The notes beneath the pieces are model-generated. The model ran no database searches, had not been told where the DNA came from, and saw only the letters and a list, made by a program, of their open reading frames with translations. A program made the translations under genes and the position numbers. From an uncultured Alphaproteobacteria bacterium (lineage in GTDB: Bacteria; Pseudomonadota; Alphaproteobacteria; UBA3830; CAYLKK01): a stretch of DNA of 64,000 bases. This document shows positions 12,247 through 16,596 of this stretch, one piece after another; position 1 is the stretch's first letter; every line of letters begins with the position of its first letter. Location: NCBI GenBank assembly GCA_964566185.1, contig CAZMHS010000002.1, forward strand, positions 39,228 to 103,227. Direction: 5' to 3'.

Positions 12247-12963
12247 TTACCAAAAAGTTTCTCCTAAGGCGATACTTCTTCTTGTATTGCTCCTACTTTT
12301 TAGTATAACAGATTTGTCCGTGATAAATTCAATTATTTTTTCATTTATTATATCTCCAACTTTCACTATTTTGTTGTTTATCAATGCCGATTCTCCTATT
12401 ATCCCATGCAGGGTATACTTTTCTTTTTGTTTTAACAATTCATACTCAAATAAATTACGTGAATTCTCATTTGTTATTCGCCTATTACGAGTAGCAGAAC
12501 ATTTTAAATCGCAATAGTAAATATTCGCTTTTAGTTTTAAAACAACTAAGCCATTCTCACGCATTAAACTTAGCGCGTTGCATTTTAATACTCCATTTAT
12601 CCCATTTTCTAATAAATGTAAAAATTGATAACAATTTTTTTCGCATACGCCAGTTAATTTAAGCGCAATTCCTCTATGCATATATTCCGATTTTTCATTC
12701 CGAAATTCTGCTATTTTAACGTGTGATGCTTTGGCTATCGTATCAATTTGCTGTTTAAATAGATCGTCATTTACGTAATTAAGACTATTATTTTTTGTAA
12801 CAGCATATGATTCATAACTTTTTATTAGGCTTTCGTATTCTCTTATATTATTTTTTATATCTTCCGTTTCACTTTCTAACTCATTAGTTTCAAATTGCAA
12901 ATATATCGCGATGAATGATGCAACAATTGCAATTAATGACCATAAACAAGATACCTTTTTCAT
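12247..12963 (-). CDS. Bitopic membrane protein, possible PilO/GspM-like plus PilP/GspC-HR-like accessory component
   Basis: 238 aa. N-terminal TM helix (LWSLIAIVASFIAIYLQF), a coiled-coil stretch, and a C-terminal beta-rich segment GIIGESALINNKIVKVGDIINEKIIEFITDKSVILK. Its start overlaps the upstream gene by 4 nt within the GspE/GspF block. Confidence 0.4.
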   Translation of the reverse strand: MKKVSCLWSLIAIVASFIAIYLQFETNELESETEDIKNNIREYESLIKSYESYAVTKNNSLNYVNDDLFKQQIDTIAKASHVKIAEFRNEKSEYMHRGIALKLTGVCEKNCYQFLHLLENGINGVLKCNALSLMRENGLVVLKLKANIYYCDLKCSATRNRRITNENSRNLFEYELLKQKEKYTLHGIIGESALINNKIVKVGDIINEKIIEFITDKSVILKSRSNTRRSIALGETFW

Positions 12964-13973
12964 ATCTTTATCTCAATGCGTTGCATACTAATTGTTGAAT
13001 CAGTAGATAATTTTCCTTTTATACGTTGTAGATCTTCACGCGAAAAGTCTTTACCTACTACAATCTGCTTTGCATCTTTTAGAACTATTTTTTCTATTAC
13101 ACCATCTTCAATATGCTCATGTATGCGCATTAATGTACAATTTGAAAAAGAACGCTTGTTTACGTTAAACAAGAAATTTCGCACTTGCGTATTAGATATC
13201 CCTGAAAAGGCCTTCGTATATGACGCAAGTAATTGCTTTATTGCTACGTAGTTATTTTGCATTCTTGTATAATTTACATACTCAATTCCTATTGCTAGCA
13301 AAGATAACAAAGATATGGATGCAATAGCGACAACGTTGTATTTTGGGAGTTTTATAAGTTTCGTACCAAAGATACATTCATATACTTGTGCCTTACTAGC
13401 ATATTCTGCAAGCATAGCAAACACATCATCATATTCAAGGAATTCTACTACATTATTTGTAGAAATGTTTCGTACATTCGTAATTATTTTTATATTTCTA
13501 AAATCAATAAACCTATTTATGTACTTGATCGTTCTAACTATTTCTAACTCAATGTCAGTCGCAAATACAATACGAGAATTCAGGATCATATTTTTCTTGC
13601 CTGAGACAATTTTCACAGTATTATCTACTCTTGTTACAATGAACATCCAATCAGCGATGTGCTTGCAATAGTTCATTATCACATATTCTATTGGACATAC
13701 AGTTTGTCTCGTCTGTGTAATATACGAATTATAATTGTTTAATTTTACTGTTACTATATACCGTTCTGTAATCTTAAATGCGTCTAGACCATAGAGTATT
13801 ATATGTTTATCATTAAGAGCATGCTTTCGCTTTAAATAAAATATCTTGATTGCATCCATTAATGATGATTTTGGAAGACGACATATTTCGTATACTACAT
13901 CATTACTATCTATAAAACAATAATCTGCCAATTCTGGATACCTTAGTGTATAATCAGTTCTTACTATTTCCAT
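12960..13973 (-). CDS. Bitopic membrane protein with GspL / PilM-PilN-fusion-like architecture
   Basis: 337 aa: about 213 cytoplasmic residues, one TM helix (VVAIASISLLSLLAIGI), and about 105 periplasmic residues. It begins 3 nt after the GspF-like gene. The call rests on architecture and position only. Confidence 0.4.
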   Translation of the reverse strand: MEIVRTDYTLRYPELADYCFIDSNDVVYEICRLPKSSLMDAIKIFYLKRKHALNDKHIILYGLDAFKITERYIVTVKLNNYNSYITQTRQTVCPIEYVIMNYCKHIADWMFIVTRVDNTVKIVSGKKNMILNSRIVFATDIELEIVRTIKYINRFIDFRNIKIITNVRNISTNNVVEFLEYDDVFAMLAEYASKAQVYECIFGTKLIKLPKYNVVAIASISLLSLLAIGIEYVNYTRMQNNYVAIKQLLASYTKAFSGISNTQVRNFLFNVNKRSFSNCTLMRIHEHIEDGVIEKIVLKDAKQIVVGKDFSREDLQRIKGKLSTDSTISMQRIEIKI

Positions 13974-13976
13974 AGT

Positions 13977-15140
13977 TTATTGCTCAAAAATATTTATAGA
14001 ACTATATAGAGGATAAAACACACCTAATAAAATCGTAATCAATAATATTCCTGCACAAAGCGTGATGGTAATACTAACTTTCATGCCTAATTTTTTTATA
14101 ATAAAATTTATTTCTTCTTTTTGATTTTGAACTATAAATTGCAAGATATTTTCTAACTCGTTGTTTTCTTCTGCTATTTTTATAGAATGTATAGTACTAG
14201 CAGAAAAAATCGTTATTTTACTTATTGCAGTCGATAATTTTTCGCCGCATAAAATATCTGAAAGTAAGTTTTTAAATTTGGAATAGTATGGTGTTTTTTC
14301 GATTGTACTTTTTATAAATTGTAAACTTTTGGTAAGATCTAGTTTTGCTCTTAACGAAATAAATAAAATAGTACAACAATGCCATTCATATATTCGTTCT
14401 ATTAATGTACTTAAATGTGGAACTTTTGCAGCTATATGAAGTAGCAATCGCCTAGGACAAATAATTAAGAATGACGTAACAGATATTAACATCATTATAA
14501 TAAAATACGGATTATTAGGAATCATTGTGATACATAACTGTGTTGCAAAAGAATGTTTGCAATTATCAGATACTAATTCACTGATTTGTGGCCCTATACA
14601 TGTAATACAAAAAATAAATGAAGCAATTGCTACTAATAGTACAAATATTGGATATAGCGCAGCCTTTTTTATTTTCTTACGTATATTTTCCTGAAATTCT
14701 AGATATATTATGATGCTTGCTATCGATTCATATAATTTACTGCTTATTTCTGCAGAATTCATTATTGATGGTATAACATATCCAAAAATACGAGGTTCAA
14801 TAGAGAATGCTTCATATAAGCTTTTGCCATTTTCTAATTCATACAAAACATGCCCTAATACTGACTGTACCGTAATATTTTTTGAAATTGATATATAAGT
14901 AGATATTGCTGTAAGTACAGGAACACAGCACTGTATCTGAAATAACATATGTCTGAAGAACGAAATAAGCTCTTGTGTAGAAAATTTCTTAGATAGCAAA
15001 TAAACTCTATTAAGAGAAACTACGTATATTCCACGTTTAGATAATGCCTTCATGCATTCTAACGTATTATTACCTAACGTTATACCGAACGTCCTTGTGC
15101 CGTCTTGCAATAATCCAATATATTTAAATGTACGCATCAC
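13977..15140 (-). CDS. Type II secretion / type IV pilus inner-membrane platform protein (GspF/PilC family)
   Basis: 387 aa. N-terminus FKYIGLLQDGTRTFGITLGNNTLECMKALSKRGIYVVSL is typical of PilC/GspF. Duplicated cytoplasmic-domain-plus-TM organisation. Overlaps the ATPase gene. Confidence 0.85.
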   Translation of the reverse strand: MMRTFKYIGLLQDGTRTFGITLGNNTLECMKALSKRGIYVVSLNRVYLLSKKFSTQELISFFRHMLFQIQCCVPVLTAISTYISISKNITVQSVLGHVLYELENGKSLYEAFSIEPRIFGYVIPSIMNSAEISSKLYESIASIIIYLEFQENIRKKIKKAALYPIFVLLVAIASFIFCITCIGPQISELVSDNCKHSFATQLCITMIPNNPYFIIMMLISVTSFLIICPRRLLLHIAAKVPHLSTLIERIYEWHCCTILFISLRAKLDLTKSLQFIKSTIEKTPYYSKFKNLLSDILCGEKLSTAISKITIFSASTIHSIKIAEENNELENILQFIVQNQKEEINFIIKKLGMKVSITITLCAGILLITILLGVFYPLYSSINIFEQ

Positions 15141-16596
15141 CTAACACTCTAATTATTTCTTGTGGATCTGTAAAATTCAATGCATCTTTCACCGATTGAT
15201 GAAACGTTTTTGTTAACGGAAATTCAAAAAAATTTGAGGAAATTTTTTGCTCTATCACTTTGTTTACACAAAAATATTCAGTTAACGGAATACGATCTTT
15301 ATAATCTTCCTCACTTTTTTTACGTACTAATCTTTGTGAAAAAATACCTATTAACTGAGATGCTAATGTCTGCATATCAACGCCAAGATTTGCCAGACGC
15401 CGTAACGCATCTATTGGAGATGTAGCATGTAATGTCCCTAAAACTAATCTACCAGTTAAAGACGCTCTTAATATTGCAGCTGCTGTACATTCGTCGCGAA
15501 TTTCGCCTACTAGCATAACGTCTGGATCCTGGCGTAAAATCGATTTAATGCCATCAGAATACGAAATAATGCCTTCGCTTTTTATATCTAGCTGACGTAT
15601 GCCATAAATTTTGTATTCAATAGGATCCTCCAGTGTCATAATATTTAATGAACCATCGTTAATTTCCTGTAATAATGAGTATAACGTTGTAGTTTTTCCT
15701 GATCCTGTCGGTCCTACTATTAAAAATATTCCACTCGGTTTACGAATCACATTAGAAAGAAAAGATGTATCTTCACTAGAGAAGTTAAGGTCTGCTAGCT
15801 TTCTCAAGCCAAAACTAGCATCTAAAATTCTGATTGCTATACATTCTCCAAATATACTTGGATGAGTTGATATTCTCATATCTATGCACCTGTTATTAAT
15901 ATTTAAAGTAGCATGTCCACTTTGAGGTTTTCGACTATCAGCAATGTTTAAATCAGACATTATTTTAAGTTTAGATCTAATCCTTCCCCACATAATAATC
16001 GGAAATGTACTAAATGATTTTAATACGCCATTTTTTCTTGCGCGTATTTCTACGATATTATCGTTTGGTGTAAAATGTAAATCACTAACATTTTCTTCTA
16101 CCGCTAAACGTATAACACTATTCAAAAAAGGTATTGCCTCGGAATGCTCTATAGCACGACATTCAGATATTATGTCTTTAATTTTTTGTTTATCAGCAAG
16201 AAAAAATTTTACTTTATAACATTTTAATGCTGATATTAACGCATCTGTTGCTACAATGTCCCCAGGATCACTAATTGCGACACAAATAGTTGATTGCGTA
16301 ACTTCAAATGGAATTGCTTGATACTCAGAGAAGATATTATTCGTTATAAGTATTTCATGACATACATTTTGCAGATCCAAGTCAATATAATCAATTTTAT
16401 AAACTATGCTAAGTATTTTGCAAAGCTCAATATCAGAAACAAATTTCATTTGAACAGCTAATTTGCCAAACAATATATTAGAACTTCTTTGTTCTCTTAG
16501 TATCACATCCATTTCATTCCGCGAGATGTATCCCAAAGACACCATCAATTCACCAATTTTATAGTTTTCCGTAAGATGTATTGAACCTTGCGCCAT
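15124..16596 (-). CDS. Type II secretion / type IV pilus assembly ATPase (GspE/PilB family) with T2SSE_N/MshEN-type N-terminal domain
   Basis: 490 aa. Walker A GPTGSGKTTT, Asp box/Walker B DPDVMLVGEIRD, His box LGTLHA. The N-terminal repeat is KIGELMVSLGYISRNEMDVILREQ ... LFGKLAVQMKFVSDIELCKIL. Confidence 0.93.
   Translation of the reverse strand: MAQGSIHLTENYKIGELMVSLGYISRNEMDVILREQRSSNILFGKLAVQMKFVSDIELCKILSIVYKIDYIDLDLQNVCHEILITNNIFSEYQAIPFEVTQSTICVAISDPGDIVATDALISALKCYKVKFFLADKQKIKDIISECRAIEHSEAIPFLNSVIRLAVEENVSDLHFTPNDNIVEIRARKNGVLKSFSTFPIIMWGRIRSKLKIMSDLNIADSRKPQSGHATLNINNRCIDMRISTHPSIFGECIAIRILDASFGLRKLADLNFSSEDTSFLSNVIRKPSGIFLIVGPTGSGKTTTLYSLLQEINDGSLNIMTLEDPIEYKIYGIRQLDIKSEGIISYSDGIKSILRQDPDVMLVGEIRDECTAAAILRASLTGRLVLGTLHATSPIDALRRLANLGVDMQTLASQLIGIFSQRLVRKKSEEDYKDRIPLTEYFCVNKVIEQKISSNFFEFPLTKTFHQSVKDALNFTDPQEIIRVLGDAYI

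What the first reader, a model, noticed from the sequence alone, without database searches (positions are those of the whole stretch)
12247..16596. Minimal GspE/GspF-type secretion or pilus assembly module with two orphan, apparently fused accessory proteins and no pilin, secretin or peptidase alongside
A PilB/GspE ATPase and a PilC/GspF platform are followed, with 3-4 nt junctions, by two unrecognisable membrane proteins. The 337-aa protein has about 213 cytoplasmic residues, one TM helix and about 105 periplasmic residues. This is the architecture of GspL, or of a PilM-PilN fusion. The 238-aa protein has an N-terminal TM helix, a coiled coil and a C-terminal beta segment, GIIGESALINNKIVKVGDIINEKIIEFITDKSVILK. 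That segment resembles the secretin-contacting HR domain of GspC/PilP. If so, it would be a PilO/GspM-PilP/GspC fusion. Four genes would then cover functions normally spread over six to eight. The partner secretin, (pseudo)pilins and prepilin peptidase must be elsewhere or missing.
Basis: partly seen in the sequence, partly recalled or inferred. Interest (0 to 1): 0.6.

Follow-up and report, generated by a model that had tools for sequence, protein, structure and literature searches.

The report
Four-gene secretion/pilus platform, Holosporaceae-type
A tightly packed four-gene operon in an intracellular alphaproteobacterium (Holosporaceae-like) encodes the motor and inner-membrane platform of a type II secretion / type IV pilus machine, and its two "orphan" genes are most likely very divergent versions of known accessory proteins, so this is a compact variant of a known machine rather than something new in kind.

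Summary
On the minus strand, four intact genes are translationally coupled: a PilB/GspE ATPase (15124-16596), a PilC/GspF platform (13977-15140), X (337 aa) and Y (238 aa). X and Y match no Pfam or NCBIfam model.

The same E-F-X-Y cassette, with different flanking genes, occurs in nine further Holosporaceae-type contigs. Against a close relative, all four genes are under purifying selection (dN/dS 0.10-0.34).

- **X:** an AlphaFold model (pLDDT 81.6) has an actin-like cytoplasmic domain. It matches the GspL cytoplasmic domain, PilM, FtsA, PilO2Bp and BfpC. One TM helix and a periplasmic alpha-beta-beta-alpha-beta-beta domain follow. This is GspL-type architecture, well supported.
- **Y:** the model is weak (pLDDT 50). 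Its middle domain has the GspM/PilO secondary-structure pattern, with PulL/PulM as the best but non-significant fold hits. Its confident six-strand C-terminal domain gives recurrent sub-threshold hits to Pfam T2SSB, the GspB family whose conserved periplasmic domain is the HR fold. The GspM-plus-HR fusion is plausible, not proven.

No pilin, secretin or prepilin peptidase lies in the window. Published Holosporaceae genomes do list gspD/pilQ.

Verdict: a lineage-specific compact variant of a known machine. A "reduced T2SS/T4P" in this family is already published. Interest is moderate.

The parts
15124..16596 (-). PilB/GspE-type secretion ATPase (490 aa). It has an N-terminal MshEN-type region, Walker A (GPTGSGKT), and Asp/His boxes. 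It lacks the C-terminal tetracysteine motif.
   Evidence: Pfam T2SSE E=1.6e-86 and MshEN E=3.6e-11. NCBIfam PilB 317 bits and GspE 304 bits, both less than half of the equivalog cut-offs. 42% identity to E. coli GspE over residues 140-426, with the last ~64 residues unaligned. One Cys in the last 110 residues.
13977..15140 (-). PilC/GspF-type polytopic inner-membrane platform protein (386-387 aa). The start is GTG 15140 or ATG 15137 and overlaps the end of the ATPase gene.
   Evidence: Pfam T2SSF, two stretches, E=1.2e-23. NCBIfam HofC 101 bits, GspF 95, PilC 86, all below cut-off. 20% identity to E. coli GspF end to end, E=8e-16. Three hydrophobic segments. Junction read.
13341..13973 (-). 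X, cytoplasmic domain (residues 1-211): predicted actin-like (two RNase-H-like halves), GspL/PilM-type domain.
   Evidence: AF2 model with a 12-sequence alignment; pLDDT mostly 84-93 over residues 1-170 and 60-89 beyond. Foldseek against PDB: 3hrg 4e-6, GspL cytoplasmic domain 4pht_X 7.5e-5 (target TM 0.45), PilM 5eou 1.3e-4, FtsA, PilO2Bp 4byz 2e-3, BfpC 3vhj 2e-2.
13284..13340 (-). X, single transmembrane helix (residues 212-230), N-terminus inside.
   Evidence: Hydropathy peak 2.07; K/R 3 upstream against 1 downstream. AF2 helix 214-256.
12960..13283 (-). X, periplasmic part (residues 231-337): a long helix, then an alpha-beta-beta-alpha-beta-beta domain as in the GspL C-terminal domain and PilN.
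   Evidence: AF2 secondary structure: H262-287 E292-299 E302-308 H312-317 E320-322 E331-336. Block-mean pLDDT is 56-63 for residues 251-280 and 71-83 beyond. No sequence-family hit.
12898..12954 (-). Y, N-terminal transmembrane helix (residues 4-22), N-terminus inside.
   Evidence: Hydropathy peak 2.31, preceded by MKK. AF2 helix 6-53 continues as a coiled-coil-like helix.
12529..12768 (-). Y, middle periplasmic domain (residues 66-145): predicted alpha-beta-beta-alpha-beta-beta, the GspM/PilO-type pattern. Low confidence.
   Evidence: AF2 H66-79 E84-90 E96-102 H108-120 E130-136 E139-145, pLDDT 38-59. Best Foldseek PDB hits are PulL CTD 5hl8 (E 0.22, prob 0.85, target TM 0.60), PulL-PulM 8ab1_B and PulM CTD 8a9x; none is significant. 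E108, Y112 and G124 are invariant in the 8-sequence family alignment.
12250..12423 (-). Y, C-terminal six-strand beta domain (residues 181-238): a candidate HR-type (GspC/GspB/PilP-like) secretin-contacting domain.
   Evidence: AF2 pLDDT 75-90, six strands. G187, I188, A193 and G203 are invariant. Pfam T2SSB hits in the same register for 4 of 8 natural family members plus a consensus I composed by eye from the alignment (E 0.0022-0.17, 12-18 bits, cut-off 28.4). The GspB HR domain is two three-stranded sheets, has the same fold as GspC HR and PilP, and binds secretin N0 (PMC9239104).

Best explanation
The four genes encode the complete cytoplasmic and inner-membrane half of a type IV filament machine of the T2SS/T4P superfamily, in a compact Holosporaceae-specific form.

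Proposed mechanism:
- The hexameric PilB/GspE-type ATPase is held at the membrane by the actin-like cytoplasmic domain of X, as GspE is held by GspL, and acts on the PilC/GspF platform.
- X and Y, both bitopic with the N-terminus inside, pair in the periplasm through their helical stalks and alpha-beta-beta-alpha-beta-beta domains, as GspL pairs with GspM and PilN with PilO.
- The C-terminal beta domain of Y reaches the N0 domain of an outer-membrane secretin encoded elsewhere, as the HR domains of GspC, GspB and PilP do. One protein would then do the work of GspM plus GspC (or PilO plus PilP).
- Pilins or pseudopilins and the prepilin peptidase are encoded elsewhere in the genome.

What is shown: the gene identities of E and F; the conservation, coupling and selection of the cassette; the topology of X and Y; and the predicted actin-like fold of X.

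What is inferred: the X-ATPase and X-Y contacts; the GspM-like and HR-like folds of Y; and the link to a secretin.

The output is not decided. It could be secretion of folded periplasmic proteins, a short pilus, or DNA uptake. The bitopic GspL-type and GspC-type architecture leans towards a T2SS-like secretion device.
For: - **E and F identities:**
- **Translational coupling:** overlaps or 3-nt gaps at all three junctions.
- **Synteny:** the E-F-X-Y order is conserved in L003, L004, L005, L007, L008, L013 and L014, and partially in L006 and L001. Flanks differ between loci: mutS/ruvA, MarR/clpP, MFS/SDF, SpoU/unknown, gatAB and others.
- **Family membership:** the X and Y families align across these loci with invariant residues.
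- **Selection:** against the 86-96% identical relative L014, dN/dS is 0.10 for PilB, 0.15 for PilC, 0.34 for X and 0.155 for Y. Neighbouring housekeeping genes give 0.08-0.18.
- **X:** model pLDDT 81.6, with significant matches to actin-like proteins of exactly this functional class: GspL cytoplasmic domain, PilM, PilO2Bp, and more weakly BfpC.
- **Y:** secondary-structure pattern and a confident C-terminal beta domain. PulL/PulM CTDs are the top fold hits out of the whole PDB. Weak T2SSB hits recur in one register, whereas control scans of the other X and Y subdomains gave only scattered, non-recurrent noise.
- **HR biology:**
- **Partners elsewhere:** a secretin (gspD/pilQ) is listed with gspF and pilB in the Holosporaceae genera Cytomitobacter and Nesciobacter, and 'pilM' is listed in one of them. 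In a more distant Holosporales contig (L009), a Peptidase_A24 gene lies directly upstream of the PilB homologue.
Against: - No sequence method links X or Y to GspL, GspM, GspC, PilM, PilN, PilO or PilP. This holds for Pfam and NCBIfam, family profiles against PDB sequences, and hhalign against single E. coli GspL/M/C/B and HofM/O/P.
- The Y model is poor overall (pLDDT 50, pTM 0.30, three-sequence alignment). Its PulL/PulM hits have E 0.2-0.9.
- The C-terminal domain of Y was never compared on its own with an HR structure, and its T2SSB scores are well below the Pfam cut-off.
- TM-scores for X are modest (0.27-0.32 on the query, 0.45 on GspL; rmsd 5.5 A).
- No pilin, secretin or peptidase was seen in the window or within 10 kb of the cassette in any Holosporaceae locus. 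The rest of the source genome could not be searched.
- The ATPase lacks the tetracysteine motif usual in GspE/PilB.
Confidence: 0.68

Rival explanations
1. Same machine, different output. The cassette drives a type IV pilus or a competence pseudopilus (adhesion to or entry into host structures, or DNA uptake) rather than T2SS-like protein secretion.
For: - NCBIfam scores the ATPase marginally higher as PilB (317 bits) than as GspE (304).
- The platform scores best as HofC.
- Other authors call the gene set 'incomplete type IV pili'.
- The cassette sits next to ruvA-ruvB in the window, L001, L007 and L014, and a ComEC-type gene lies 1.6 kb from it in L007.
- The N-terminal MshEN-type motif is of the kind found in pilus ATPases.
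Against: - The ruvAB neighbourhood is not conserved in L003, L004, L005, L008 or L013.
- A fused bitopic GspL-type protein, and an HR domain on a protein with an N-terminal TM anchor, are T2SS/T4b/MSH-style features. The T4a style is a split PilM + PilN and a lipoprotein PilP (established knowledge of these families).
- No pilin or PilT-type gene was seen in any locus.
Confidence: 0.35
2. Y is only a GspC/GspB-like scaffold: a TM anchor, a lineage-specific spacer and an HR-like domain. It is not a fusion with a GspM/PilO module, so the system simply lacks a GspM equivalent. Alternatively, the C-terminal beta domain is not an HR domain at all.
For: - The middle domain of Y is predicted with pLDDT 38-59, and its PulL/PulM hits are not significant.
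- Pfam scans of the isolated middle domain from five family members gave only unrelated noise.
- Three members hit CdsD_C rather than T2SSB in the C-terminal domain.
Against: - The alpha-beta-beta-alpha-beta-beta order, the preceding long helix and the N-in single-TM topology are exactly those of GspM/PilO.
- Out of 350,542 PDB chains, the best-ranked small-domain matches are PulL and PulM C-terminal domains.
- X carries a matching periplasmic domain that would otherwise lack a partner.
- Genuine HR domains barely detect each other by sequence. The E. coli K-12 GspC HR finds 2lnv at E=0.0087, 3oss_C at 0.2 and 7oio at 0.23. Weak scores are therefore expected.
Confidence: 0.25
3. The module is a decaying remnant of an ancestral T2SS/T4P system, left in a reduced genome without partners and without function.
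For: - No pilin, secretin or peptidase lies nearby.
- The literature describes the Holosporales systems as 'incomplete' or 'reduced'.
- X evolves faster than its neighbours (dN/dS 0.34).
- The ATPase has lost the tetracysteine motif.
Against: - All four reading frames are intact and translationally coupled in nine further contigs, down to about 18-20% identity in X and Y.
- dN/dS is well below 1 for all four genes.
- The Walker A motif and the catalytic core of the ATPase are conserved.
- Secretin genes are reported in even the smallest Holosporaceae genomes.
Confidence: 0.06

Closest known systems
Type II secretion system assembly platform GspE-GspF-GspL-GspM-GspC (e.g. Vibrio Eps, Klebsiella Pul, Dickeya Out)
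   Same: - The ATPase core is 42% identical to E. coli GspE, and the ATPase is of GspE-like length.
- The platform has two T2SSF repeats and three TM segments.
- X has GspL architecture, and its predicted cytoplasmic fold matches the GspL cytoplasmic domain of the GspE-GspL complex 4pht.
- Y has GspM topology, and its best fold hits are PulL/PulM CTDs.
- The Y C-terminal domain resembles the HR domain of GspC/GspB.
   Different: - X and Y share no detectable sequence similarity with GspL, GspM or GspC.
- The putative M and C functions sit on one 238-aa chain, with no PDZ or coiled-coil domain after the HR-like domain.
- The gene order is E-F-L-M/C, with no pseudopilin, secretin or peptidase genes in the operon.
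- The ATPase lacks the Zn-binding tetracysteine motif.
- The ATPase and platform fail the NCBIfam equivalog cut-offs by a factor of more than two.
Type IVa pilus alignment subcomplex PilM-PilN-PilO-PilP with PilB/PilC
   Same: - The same functional logic applies: an actin-like cytoplasmic protein linked to a bitopic partner, a PilN/PilO-type periplasmic heterodimer, and a beta-domain protein contacting secretin N0.
- PilM structures are significant fold matches for X (5eou, E=1.3e-4).
- The ATPase scores slightly best as PilB.
   Different: - X is one chain with a ~210-aa actin-like domain. PilM is ~350 aa and is separate from PilN.
- X has no DxG-type phosphate-1 motif; the conserved N-terminal motif is FIDSxDV.
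- Y is TM-anchored, whereas PilP is a lipoprotein.
- Two proteins replace four.
GspL-like proteins of type IVb and MSHA-type pili (BfpC, PilO2Bp, and by knowledge MshI/TcpR)
   Same: They are bitopic proteins with a small, nucleotide-free actin-like cytoplasmic domain of 160-200 aa. 4byz/4bz0 (PilO2Bp) and 3vhj (BfpC) are among the fold hits for X, with target-normalised TM 0.37-0.46.
   Different: There is no sequence similarity. The Holosporaceae cassette lacks the other T4b-specific genes. The ATPase is nearer to GspE/PilB than to T4b ATPases on NCBIfam scores.
'Reduced T2SS/T4P' or 'incomplete type IV pili' already reported in Holosporales genomes (George et al., bioRxiv 10.1101/719211; Dittmer et al., PMC9992710)
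   Same: This is the same lineage and evidently the same system: pilB and gspF together with gspD/pilQ, and 'pilM' annotated in one species.
   Different: As far as I could read them, those reports list only the recognisable genes and treat the system as incomplete. They do not describe the two conserved downstream genes as GspL-like and GspM/HR-like platform components.

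Membership tests
GspE/PilB secretion ATPase superfamily (Pfam T2SSE PF00437) | T2SSE domain above the Pfam gathering score, with a Walker A P-loop and a conserved catalytic core | tested here: met
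   290.7 bits against a cut-off of 24.9. GPTGSGKT and the DPDV..GEIRD and LTGRLVLGTLHA boxes align with E. coli GspE at 42% identity.
GspE (TIGR02533) or PilB (TIGR02538) equivalogs | Score above the NCBIfam equivalog cut-off | tested here: not met
   PilB 317.2 against 675.65; GspE 303.8 against 630.25. The protein is a superfamily member, not assignable to either equivalog.
GspE/PilB | C-terminal tetracysteine (Zn) motif | tested here: not met
   The last 110 residues contain one Cys in the window protein and 0-2 Cys in the seven other close-clade homologues inspected. A CxxC...CxxC motif is present in the more distant P0112.
GspF/PilC platform (Pfam T2SSF PF00482) | Two T2SSF repeats and three TM segments | tested here: met
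   83.9 bits, two stretches. Three hydrophobic segments. End-to-end alignment with E. coli GspF, E=8e-16. NCBIfam equivalog cut-offs are not reached.
GspL (Pfam T2SSL / GspL_C) | Sequence match to the family models | tested here: not met
   No Pfam or NCBIfam hit for X or for any of 12 family members, even at E<=10. hhalign against E. coli GspL gave probability 0.15.
GspL | Architecture: cytoplasmic domain of ~200-240 aa, one TM helix, periplasmic domain of ~100 aa | tested here: met
   211 / 19 / 107 residues, N-terminus inside. Consistent with the AF2 model.
GspL | Actin-like (ASKHA-type) fold of the cytoplasmic domain | tested here: met
   Predicted model only. Foldseek 4pht_X E=7.5e-5, probability 1.00, target TM 0.45. 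Also PilM, FtsA, PilO2Bp and BfpC.
GspL | Ferredoxin-like periplasmic domain that pairs with GspM | tested here: inconclusive
   The alpha-beta-beta-alpha-beta-beta order is predicted; block-mean pLDDT is 56-63 for residues 251-280 and 71-83 beyond. The domain was not searched on its own, and pairing was not modelled.
GspL | Binding of the ATPase N-terminal domain | not testable with these tools
   This needs multimer modelling or experiment.
PilM (T4aP) | Full-length (~350 aa) ATP-binding actin-like protein, separate from PilN, clamping the PilN N-terminal peptide | tested here: not met
   The X cytoplasmic domain is ~210 aa and is fused to its TM and periplasmic part. The conserved N-terminal motif is FIDSxDV, without the DxG phosphate-1 signature (read by eye).
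GspM / PilO | Sequence match to the family models | tested here: not met
   No hit for Y, for 8 family members, or for 5 isolated middle domains. hhalign against E. coli GspM and HofO gave probability below 0.3.
GspM / PilO | Short cytoplasmic N-terminus, one TM helix, a helical stalk, and a ferredoxin-like alpha-beta-beta-alpha-beta-beta periplasmic domain | tested here: inconclusive
   Topology is met. The secondary-structure order is met but at pLDDT 38-59. PulL/PulM CTDs are the top fold hits but at E 0.22-0.86.
HR domain of GspC / GspB / PilP | Sequence match to Pfam T2SSC, T2SSB or PilP | tested here: inconclusive
   T2SSB scores 12.0-18.1 bits (cut-off 28.4) in 4 of 8 natural C-terminal domains plus a consensus I composed by eye, always profile positions ~19-56 of 60. 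No T2SSC or PilP hit. Calibration: true GspC HR domains find each other only at E 0.009-0.8. That PF16537 covers the HR region of GspB is my inference, not a direct test.
HR domain of GspC / GspB / PilP | Six-strand beta-sandwich made of two three-stranded sheets | tested here: inconclusive
HR domain of GspC / GspB / PilP | A cognate secretin with an N0 domain in the same genome | not testable with these tools
   Only 64 kb of the genome is available, with no secretin in it. gspD/pilQ are reported in other Holosporaceae genomes.

The most novel reading that the evidence does not exclude
Holosporaceae run a T2SS/T4P-type machine whose whole inner-membrane platform is four proteins. One 230-250-aa chain (Y) combines the GspM/PilO dimerisation module with the secretin-binding HR module of GspC/GspB/PilP. 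As far as I know, this domain combination has not been described in the type IV filament superfamily.

The machine would be the outer-membrane route for Sec-signal-bearing host effectors. Candidates are the WH2 / proline-rich and WASP-like acidic-tail proteins encoded 40 kb away in the same window.
Probability: 0.3. Interest if true: 0.55.

Novelty: new variant of a known kind. Interest (0 to 1): 0.4.

Why it matters
Genome papers on Holosporales score their T2SS/T4P as "incomplete" or "reduced" because only the ATPase, the platform and the secretin are recognisable. If X and Y are the missing GspL-like and GspM/C-like parts, the inner-membrane platform is complete. The system should then be treated as a working envelope machine in obligate intracellular symbionts of protists, one that could export effectors or build a filament.

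It would also show how far these accessory proteins can diverge, and fuse, while keeping architecture and fold. That is useful for building better detection models for type IV filament systems in reduced genomes. It does not open a new kind of biology.

Tried and rejected
- **Word-index homologue searches:** only 2 relatives were found for each of X and Y. The families had to be assembled from the neighbourhoods of PilB homologues instead.
- **Genome-contig scan with the ATPase:** it returned only a Romboutsia PilB locus. That locus served merely as a positive control for the pilin motif search.
- **Metagenome scans:** The narrower X alignment and the PilC alignment found nothing useful.
- **Source identification:** The organism is inferred only from the names given to PilB homologues, 'Holosporaceae bacterium'.
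- **Remote homology by sequence:** family profiles against PDB sequences gave nothing. hhalign of the X and Y alignments against single E. coli GspL, GspM, GspC, GspB, HofM, HofO and HofP sequences gave nothing significant. The HofP alignment did place Y residues 182-221 on the PilP-like region, but at E=0.72. E. coli K-12 GspB turned out to lack an HR-like C-terminus.
- **HR reference set from PDB sequences:** the attempt was swamped by designed beta-propeller proteins. It was useful only as a calibration of how weakly true HR domains match each other.
- **Promoter and terminator scan of the operon:** results were at chance level.
- **MutS row of the dN/dS table:** it used mis-registered coordinates and should be ignored.
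- **Chance neighbours:** I considered and rejected the idea that X and Y are unrelated neighbours, because of the codon overlaps and the conserved synteny with changing flanks.

Full report
**1. What is there**

The window is AT-rich, about 30-40% G+C. Its gene content is that of a reduced alphaproteobacterial genome: ATP synthase, gyrB, ruvAB, mutS, ndk, tsaD, ftsZ and others.

On the minus strand between mutS (divergent) and ruvA lie four ORFs:
- a 490-aa ATPase (15124-16596);
- a 386-387-aa polytopic protein (13977-15140);
- X, 337 aa (12960-13973);
- Y, 238 aa (12247-12963).

The platform gene starts 14-17 nt inside the ATPase gene. X starts 3 nt after the platform stop. X and Y overlap as ATGA.

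The ATPase is an unambiguous T2SSE-family protein (E=1.6e-86) with an MshEN-type N-terminal region. The second protein carries two T2SSF repeats. Neither reaches half of the NCBIfam cut-off for GspE, PilB, GspF or PilC, so the pair belongs to the superfamily but to none of the curated subfamilies. The ATPase core is 42% identical to E. coli GspE, and the platform is 20% identical to GspF over its full length. X and Y have no family hit.

Hydropathy and charge give X 211 cytoplasmic residues, one TM helix (212-230) and 107 periplasmic residues. Y has a TM helix at residues 4-22 with the rest in the periplasm.

**2. The cassette is a conserved unit of one lineage**

The nearest ATPase homologues (41-55% identity) come from metagenome bins that NCBI names Holosporaceae or Holosporales. 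I looked at the context of eight of them, of two X homologues and of one Y homologue.

- Seven loci (L003, L004, L005, L007, L008, L013, L014) show the full order: ATPase, platform, a 266-434-aa protein, then a 229-257-aa protein. None of the last two has a Pfam hit. L006 shows the same order with Y cut off by the contig end, and L001 holds only the Y-ruvA end.
- The flanking genes differ from locus to locus.
- The downstream proteins align with X and Y at 17-54% identity and share invariant residues.
- A full HMMER pass over 1.84 billion representative proteins found only 11 relatives of X. The family is therefore narrow and fast-evolving.
- A more distant Holosporales contig (L009) lacks the cassette next to its PilB, but has a Peptidase_A24 gene directly upstream.

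Against a close relative (L014; 86-96% protein identity), dN/dS is 0.10 for the ATPase, 0.15 for the platform, 0.34 for X and 0.155 for Y. Neighbouring housekeeping genes give 0.08-0.18. The MutS row of that table is mis-registered and should be ignored. The four genes are maintained by selection, so a relic is unlikely.

**3. What X is**

X was modelled with a 12-sequence alignment built from the representative-library hits, giving pLDDT 81.6. The model has:
- an N-terminal alpha/beta domain made of two beta-beta-beta-alpha-beta-type halves;
- a long TM and stalk helix;
- a C-terminal alpha-beta-beta-alpha-beta-beta domain.

Foldseek against the PDB gave 14 matches at E<=0.001, all of them actin-like proteins. 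The matches, including weaker ones, were:
- BT_3980, 4e-6;
- the cytoplasmic domain of GspL in its complex with GspE (4pht_X), 7.5e-5, TM 0.45 on the target;
- PilM (5eou), 1.3e-4;
- FtsA;
- the cytoplasmic domain of PilO2Bp (4byz/4bz0), E 2.0e-3 to 5.6e-3;
- BfpC (3vhj), 2e-2.

TM-scores are modest, so the fold class is secure and the sub-family is not. The size of the domain (~210 aa) and its fusion to a TM helix and a small periplasmic domain are the GspL / BfpC / PilO2 arrangement, not the free 350-aa PilM. I read X as a GspL-type protein.

**4. What Y is**

Only three sequences were admissible for modelling, and the model is poor (pLDDT 50). Two parts of it still carry information.

*The middle domain.* The predicted order is a long helix after the TM segment, then H66-79, E84-90, E96-102, H108-120, E130-136, E139-145. 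This is the alpha-beta-beta-alpha-beta-beta pattern of GspM, PilO, PilN and the GspL C-terminal domain. In a search of 350,542 PDB chains, the best small-domain matches were PulL CTD (5hl8: E 0.22, probability 0.85, target TM 0.60), the PulL-PulM heterocomplex (8ab1_B) and PulM CTD (8a9x). None is significant.

*The C-terminal domain.* The last 58 residues are confidently predicted (pLDDT 75-90) as six short strands. This region holds the family's most conserved motif: h-x-L-x-G-I...A-x-I-N...V-G-D-x-I...I-x-x-I...V-x-L.
- When scanned alone, 4 of 8 natural C-terminal domains, plus a consensus I composed by eye from the alignment, hit Pfam T2SSB in the same register. E ranges from 0.0022 to 0.17, and scores are 12-18 bits against a cut-off of 28.4.
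- Three other members hit CdsD_C instead.
- The same kind of scan on the middle domain of Y and the periplasmic domain of X returned only scattered, non-recurrent noise. That makes the recurrence of T2SSB more meaningful.
- The conserved periplasmic domain of GspB/OutB is an HR domain of two three-stranded sheets. It has the same fold as GspC HR and PilP and binds the secretin N0 domain (PMC9239104). That the Pfam T2SSB model covers this HR region is my inference.
- True HR domains are barely detectable by sequence. E. coli GspC HR finds other GspC HR structures only at E 0.009-0.8.

The GspM-like plus HR-like reading of Y is therefore the best available. I put each half at roughly 55-60%.

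**5. Missing partners**

No class-III signal-peptide motif occurs in any frame of the window or of the Holosporaceae loci. The same scan found four pilins in the Romboutsia control locus. Pfam scans of the window's ORFs found no secretin or A24 peptidase. The rest of the genome is not available to me.

Published tables for the Holosporaceae genera Cytomitobacter and Nesciobacter list gspF, pilB, gspD and pilQ, and pilM in one species. They call this a reduced T2SS/T4P hybrid. Another comparative study says most Holosporales have 'incomplete type IV pili'. A secretin therefore exists in this family's genomes, which fits an HR-type domain on Y. The 'pilM' call in one species may be an X homologue, though that is a guess.

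**6. How it most likely works**

The ATPase hexamer is tethered by the X cytoplasmic domain and powers the PilC/GspF platform. X and Y pair in the periplasm. The Y tail links the platform to the secretin. Prepilin-like subunits processed by an A24 peptidase are polymerised.

The steps that are shown and those that are inferred are listed under the best explanation. Whether the output is secretion, a pilus or DNA uptake is open. The bitopic GspL-type and TM-anchored HR-type architecture leans towards T2SS-like. The ruvAB neighbourhood seen in some loci is not conserved.

**7. Comparison and novelty**

The system works like a T2SS assembly platform (GspE-F-L-M-C) or a T4P PilB-C-M-N-O-P set. By sequence-model criteria it is a member only at the superfamily level for E and F, and not at all for X and Y. 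By architecture and predicted fold, X qualifies as GspL-like.

A single chain combining the M/O and HR modules is, to my knowledge, undescribed. The system itself has already been noticed in this lineage. I rate it a new variant of a known kind, of moderate interest (0.4).

**8. Side observations**

- The ATPases of this clade have lost the tetracysteine motif that a more distant homologue (P0112) keeps.
- The ATPase N-terminus nearly reaches the NCBIfam c-di-GMP-binding MshE motif: 34.1 bits against a cut-off of 38.
- Some 40 kb away lie two signal-peptide proteins with features of eukaryotic actin regulators.

Noticed in passing
window 52709-53692 (+): A 327-aa protein with a signal-peptide-like N-terminus, a coiled-coil region, two polyproline tracts (PPPPPLP, PPPPPP) and a Pfam WH2 actin-binding motif (33.7 bits, above the cut-off of 23.1, E=2.6e-8). 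It looks like a secreted host-actin effector in the style of an eukaryotic nucleation-promoting factor.
   Followed up: partly
window 53786-55486 (+): A 566-aa protein with no Pfam family. It has a signal-peptide-like N-terminus, coiled coils, a WH2-like stretch (RSDLLSQLQNRKPLKKV) and an acidic C-terminus with a tryptophan (DDDDDDDDDSNDEWND). The acidic tail recalls the V...A end of WASP/RickA-type Arp2/3 activators. This was seen by eye only. The 52-58 kb region also has an unusually high AT skew, and another 428-aa orphan lies at 55636-56922.
   Followed up: partly
window 15124-16596 (-), ATPase C-terminus (residues ~427-490) and N-terminus (residues 13-63): The ATPase and its close Holosporaceae homologues lack the tetracysteine Zn motif usual in GspE/PilB; a more distant Holosporales homologue (P0112) keeps CxxC...CxxC. 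The N-terminus (KIGELMVSLGYISRNEMDVILREQ...) scores 34.1 bits against a cut-off of 38 for the NCBIfam MshE-related c-di-GMP-binding motif. The second half-motif is degenerate.
   Followed up: partly
L009 8235-9380 (distant Holosporales contig): A gene directly upstream of, and abutting, the PilB homologue combines a Peptidase_A24 (prepilin peptidase) domain with dienelactone-hydrolase / alpha-beta-hydrolase domains. This is an unusual fusion. No PilC, X or Y follows that PilB.
   Followed up: no
window 28039-28836 (+): A Zeta-toxin-domain protein (E=1.9e-23) lies immediately upstream of an APH-family kinase and a dTDP-rhamnose (rmlA/C/D/B-like) plus RgpF/GT92 glycosyltransferase cluster (28838-34911). 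No antitoxin was identified.
   Followed up: no
window 36068-37114 (+): A 348-aa protein has an LptC-related match only in residues 25-182, so it is about twice the usual LptC length. It sits between a SIS/CBS (KdsD-like) gene and an ABC ATPase (LptB-like), and may be a fused or extended Lpt bridge component.
   Followed up: no
L006 506-4127 and L003 1-8608: In relatives, the cassette sits next to a phage head-module remnant (S78 protease, major capsid, connector) in L006, and next to several large LRR_5 / LRR_8 repeat proteins in L003. The LRR proteins may be host-interaction proteins.
   Followed up: no
window 20102-20680 (-): A 192-aa orphan with a signal-peptide-like N-terminus lies between ndk and a CDP-alcohol phosphatidyltransferase gene. 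It is conserved and under purifying selection against L014 (dN/dS 0.13), with no family hit.
   Followed up: no
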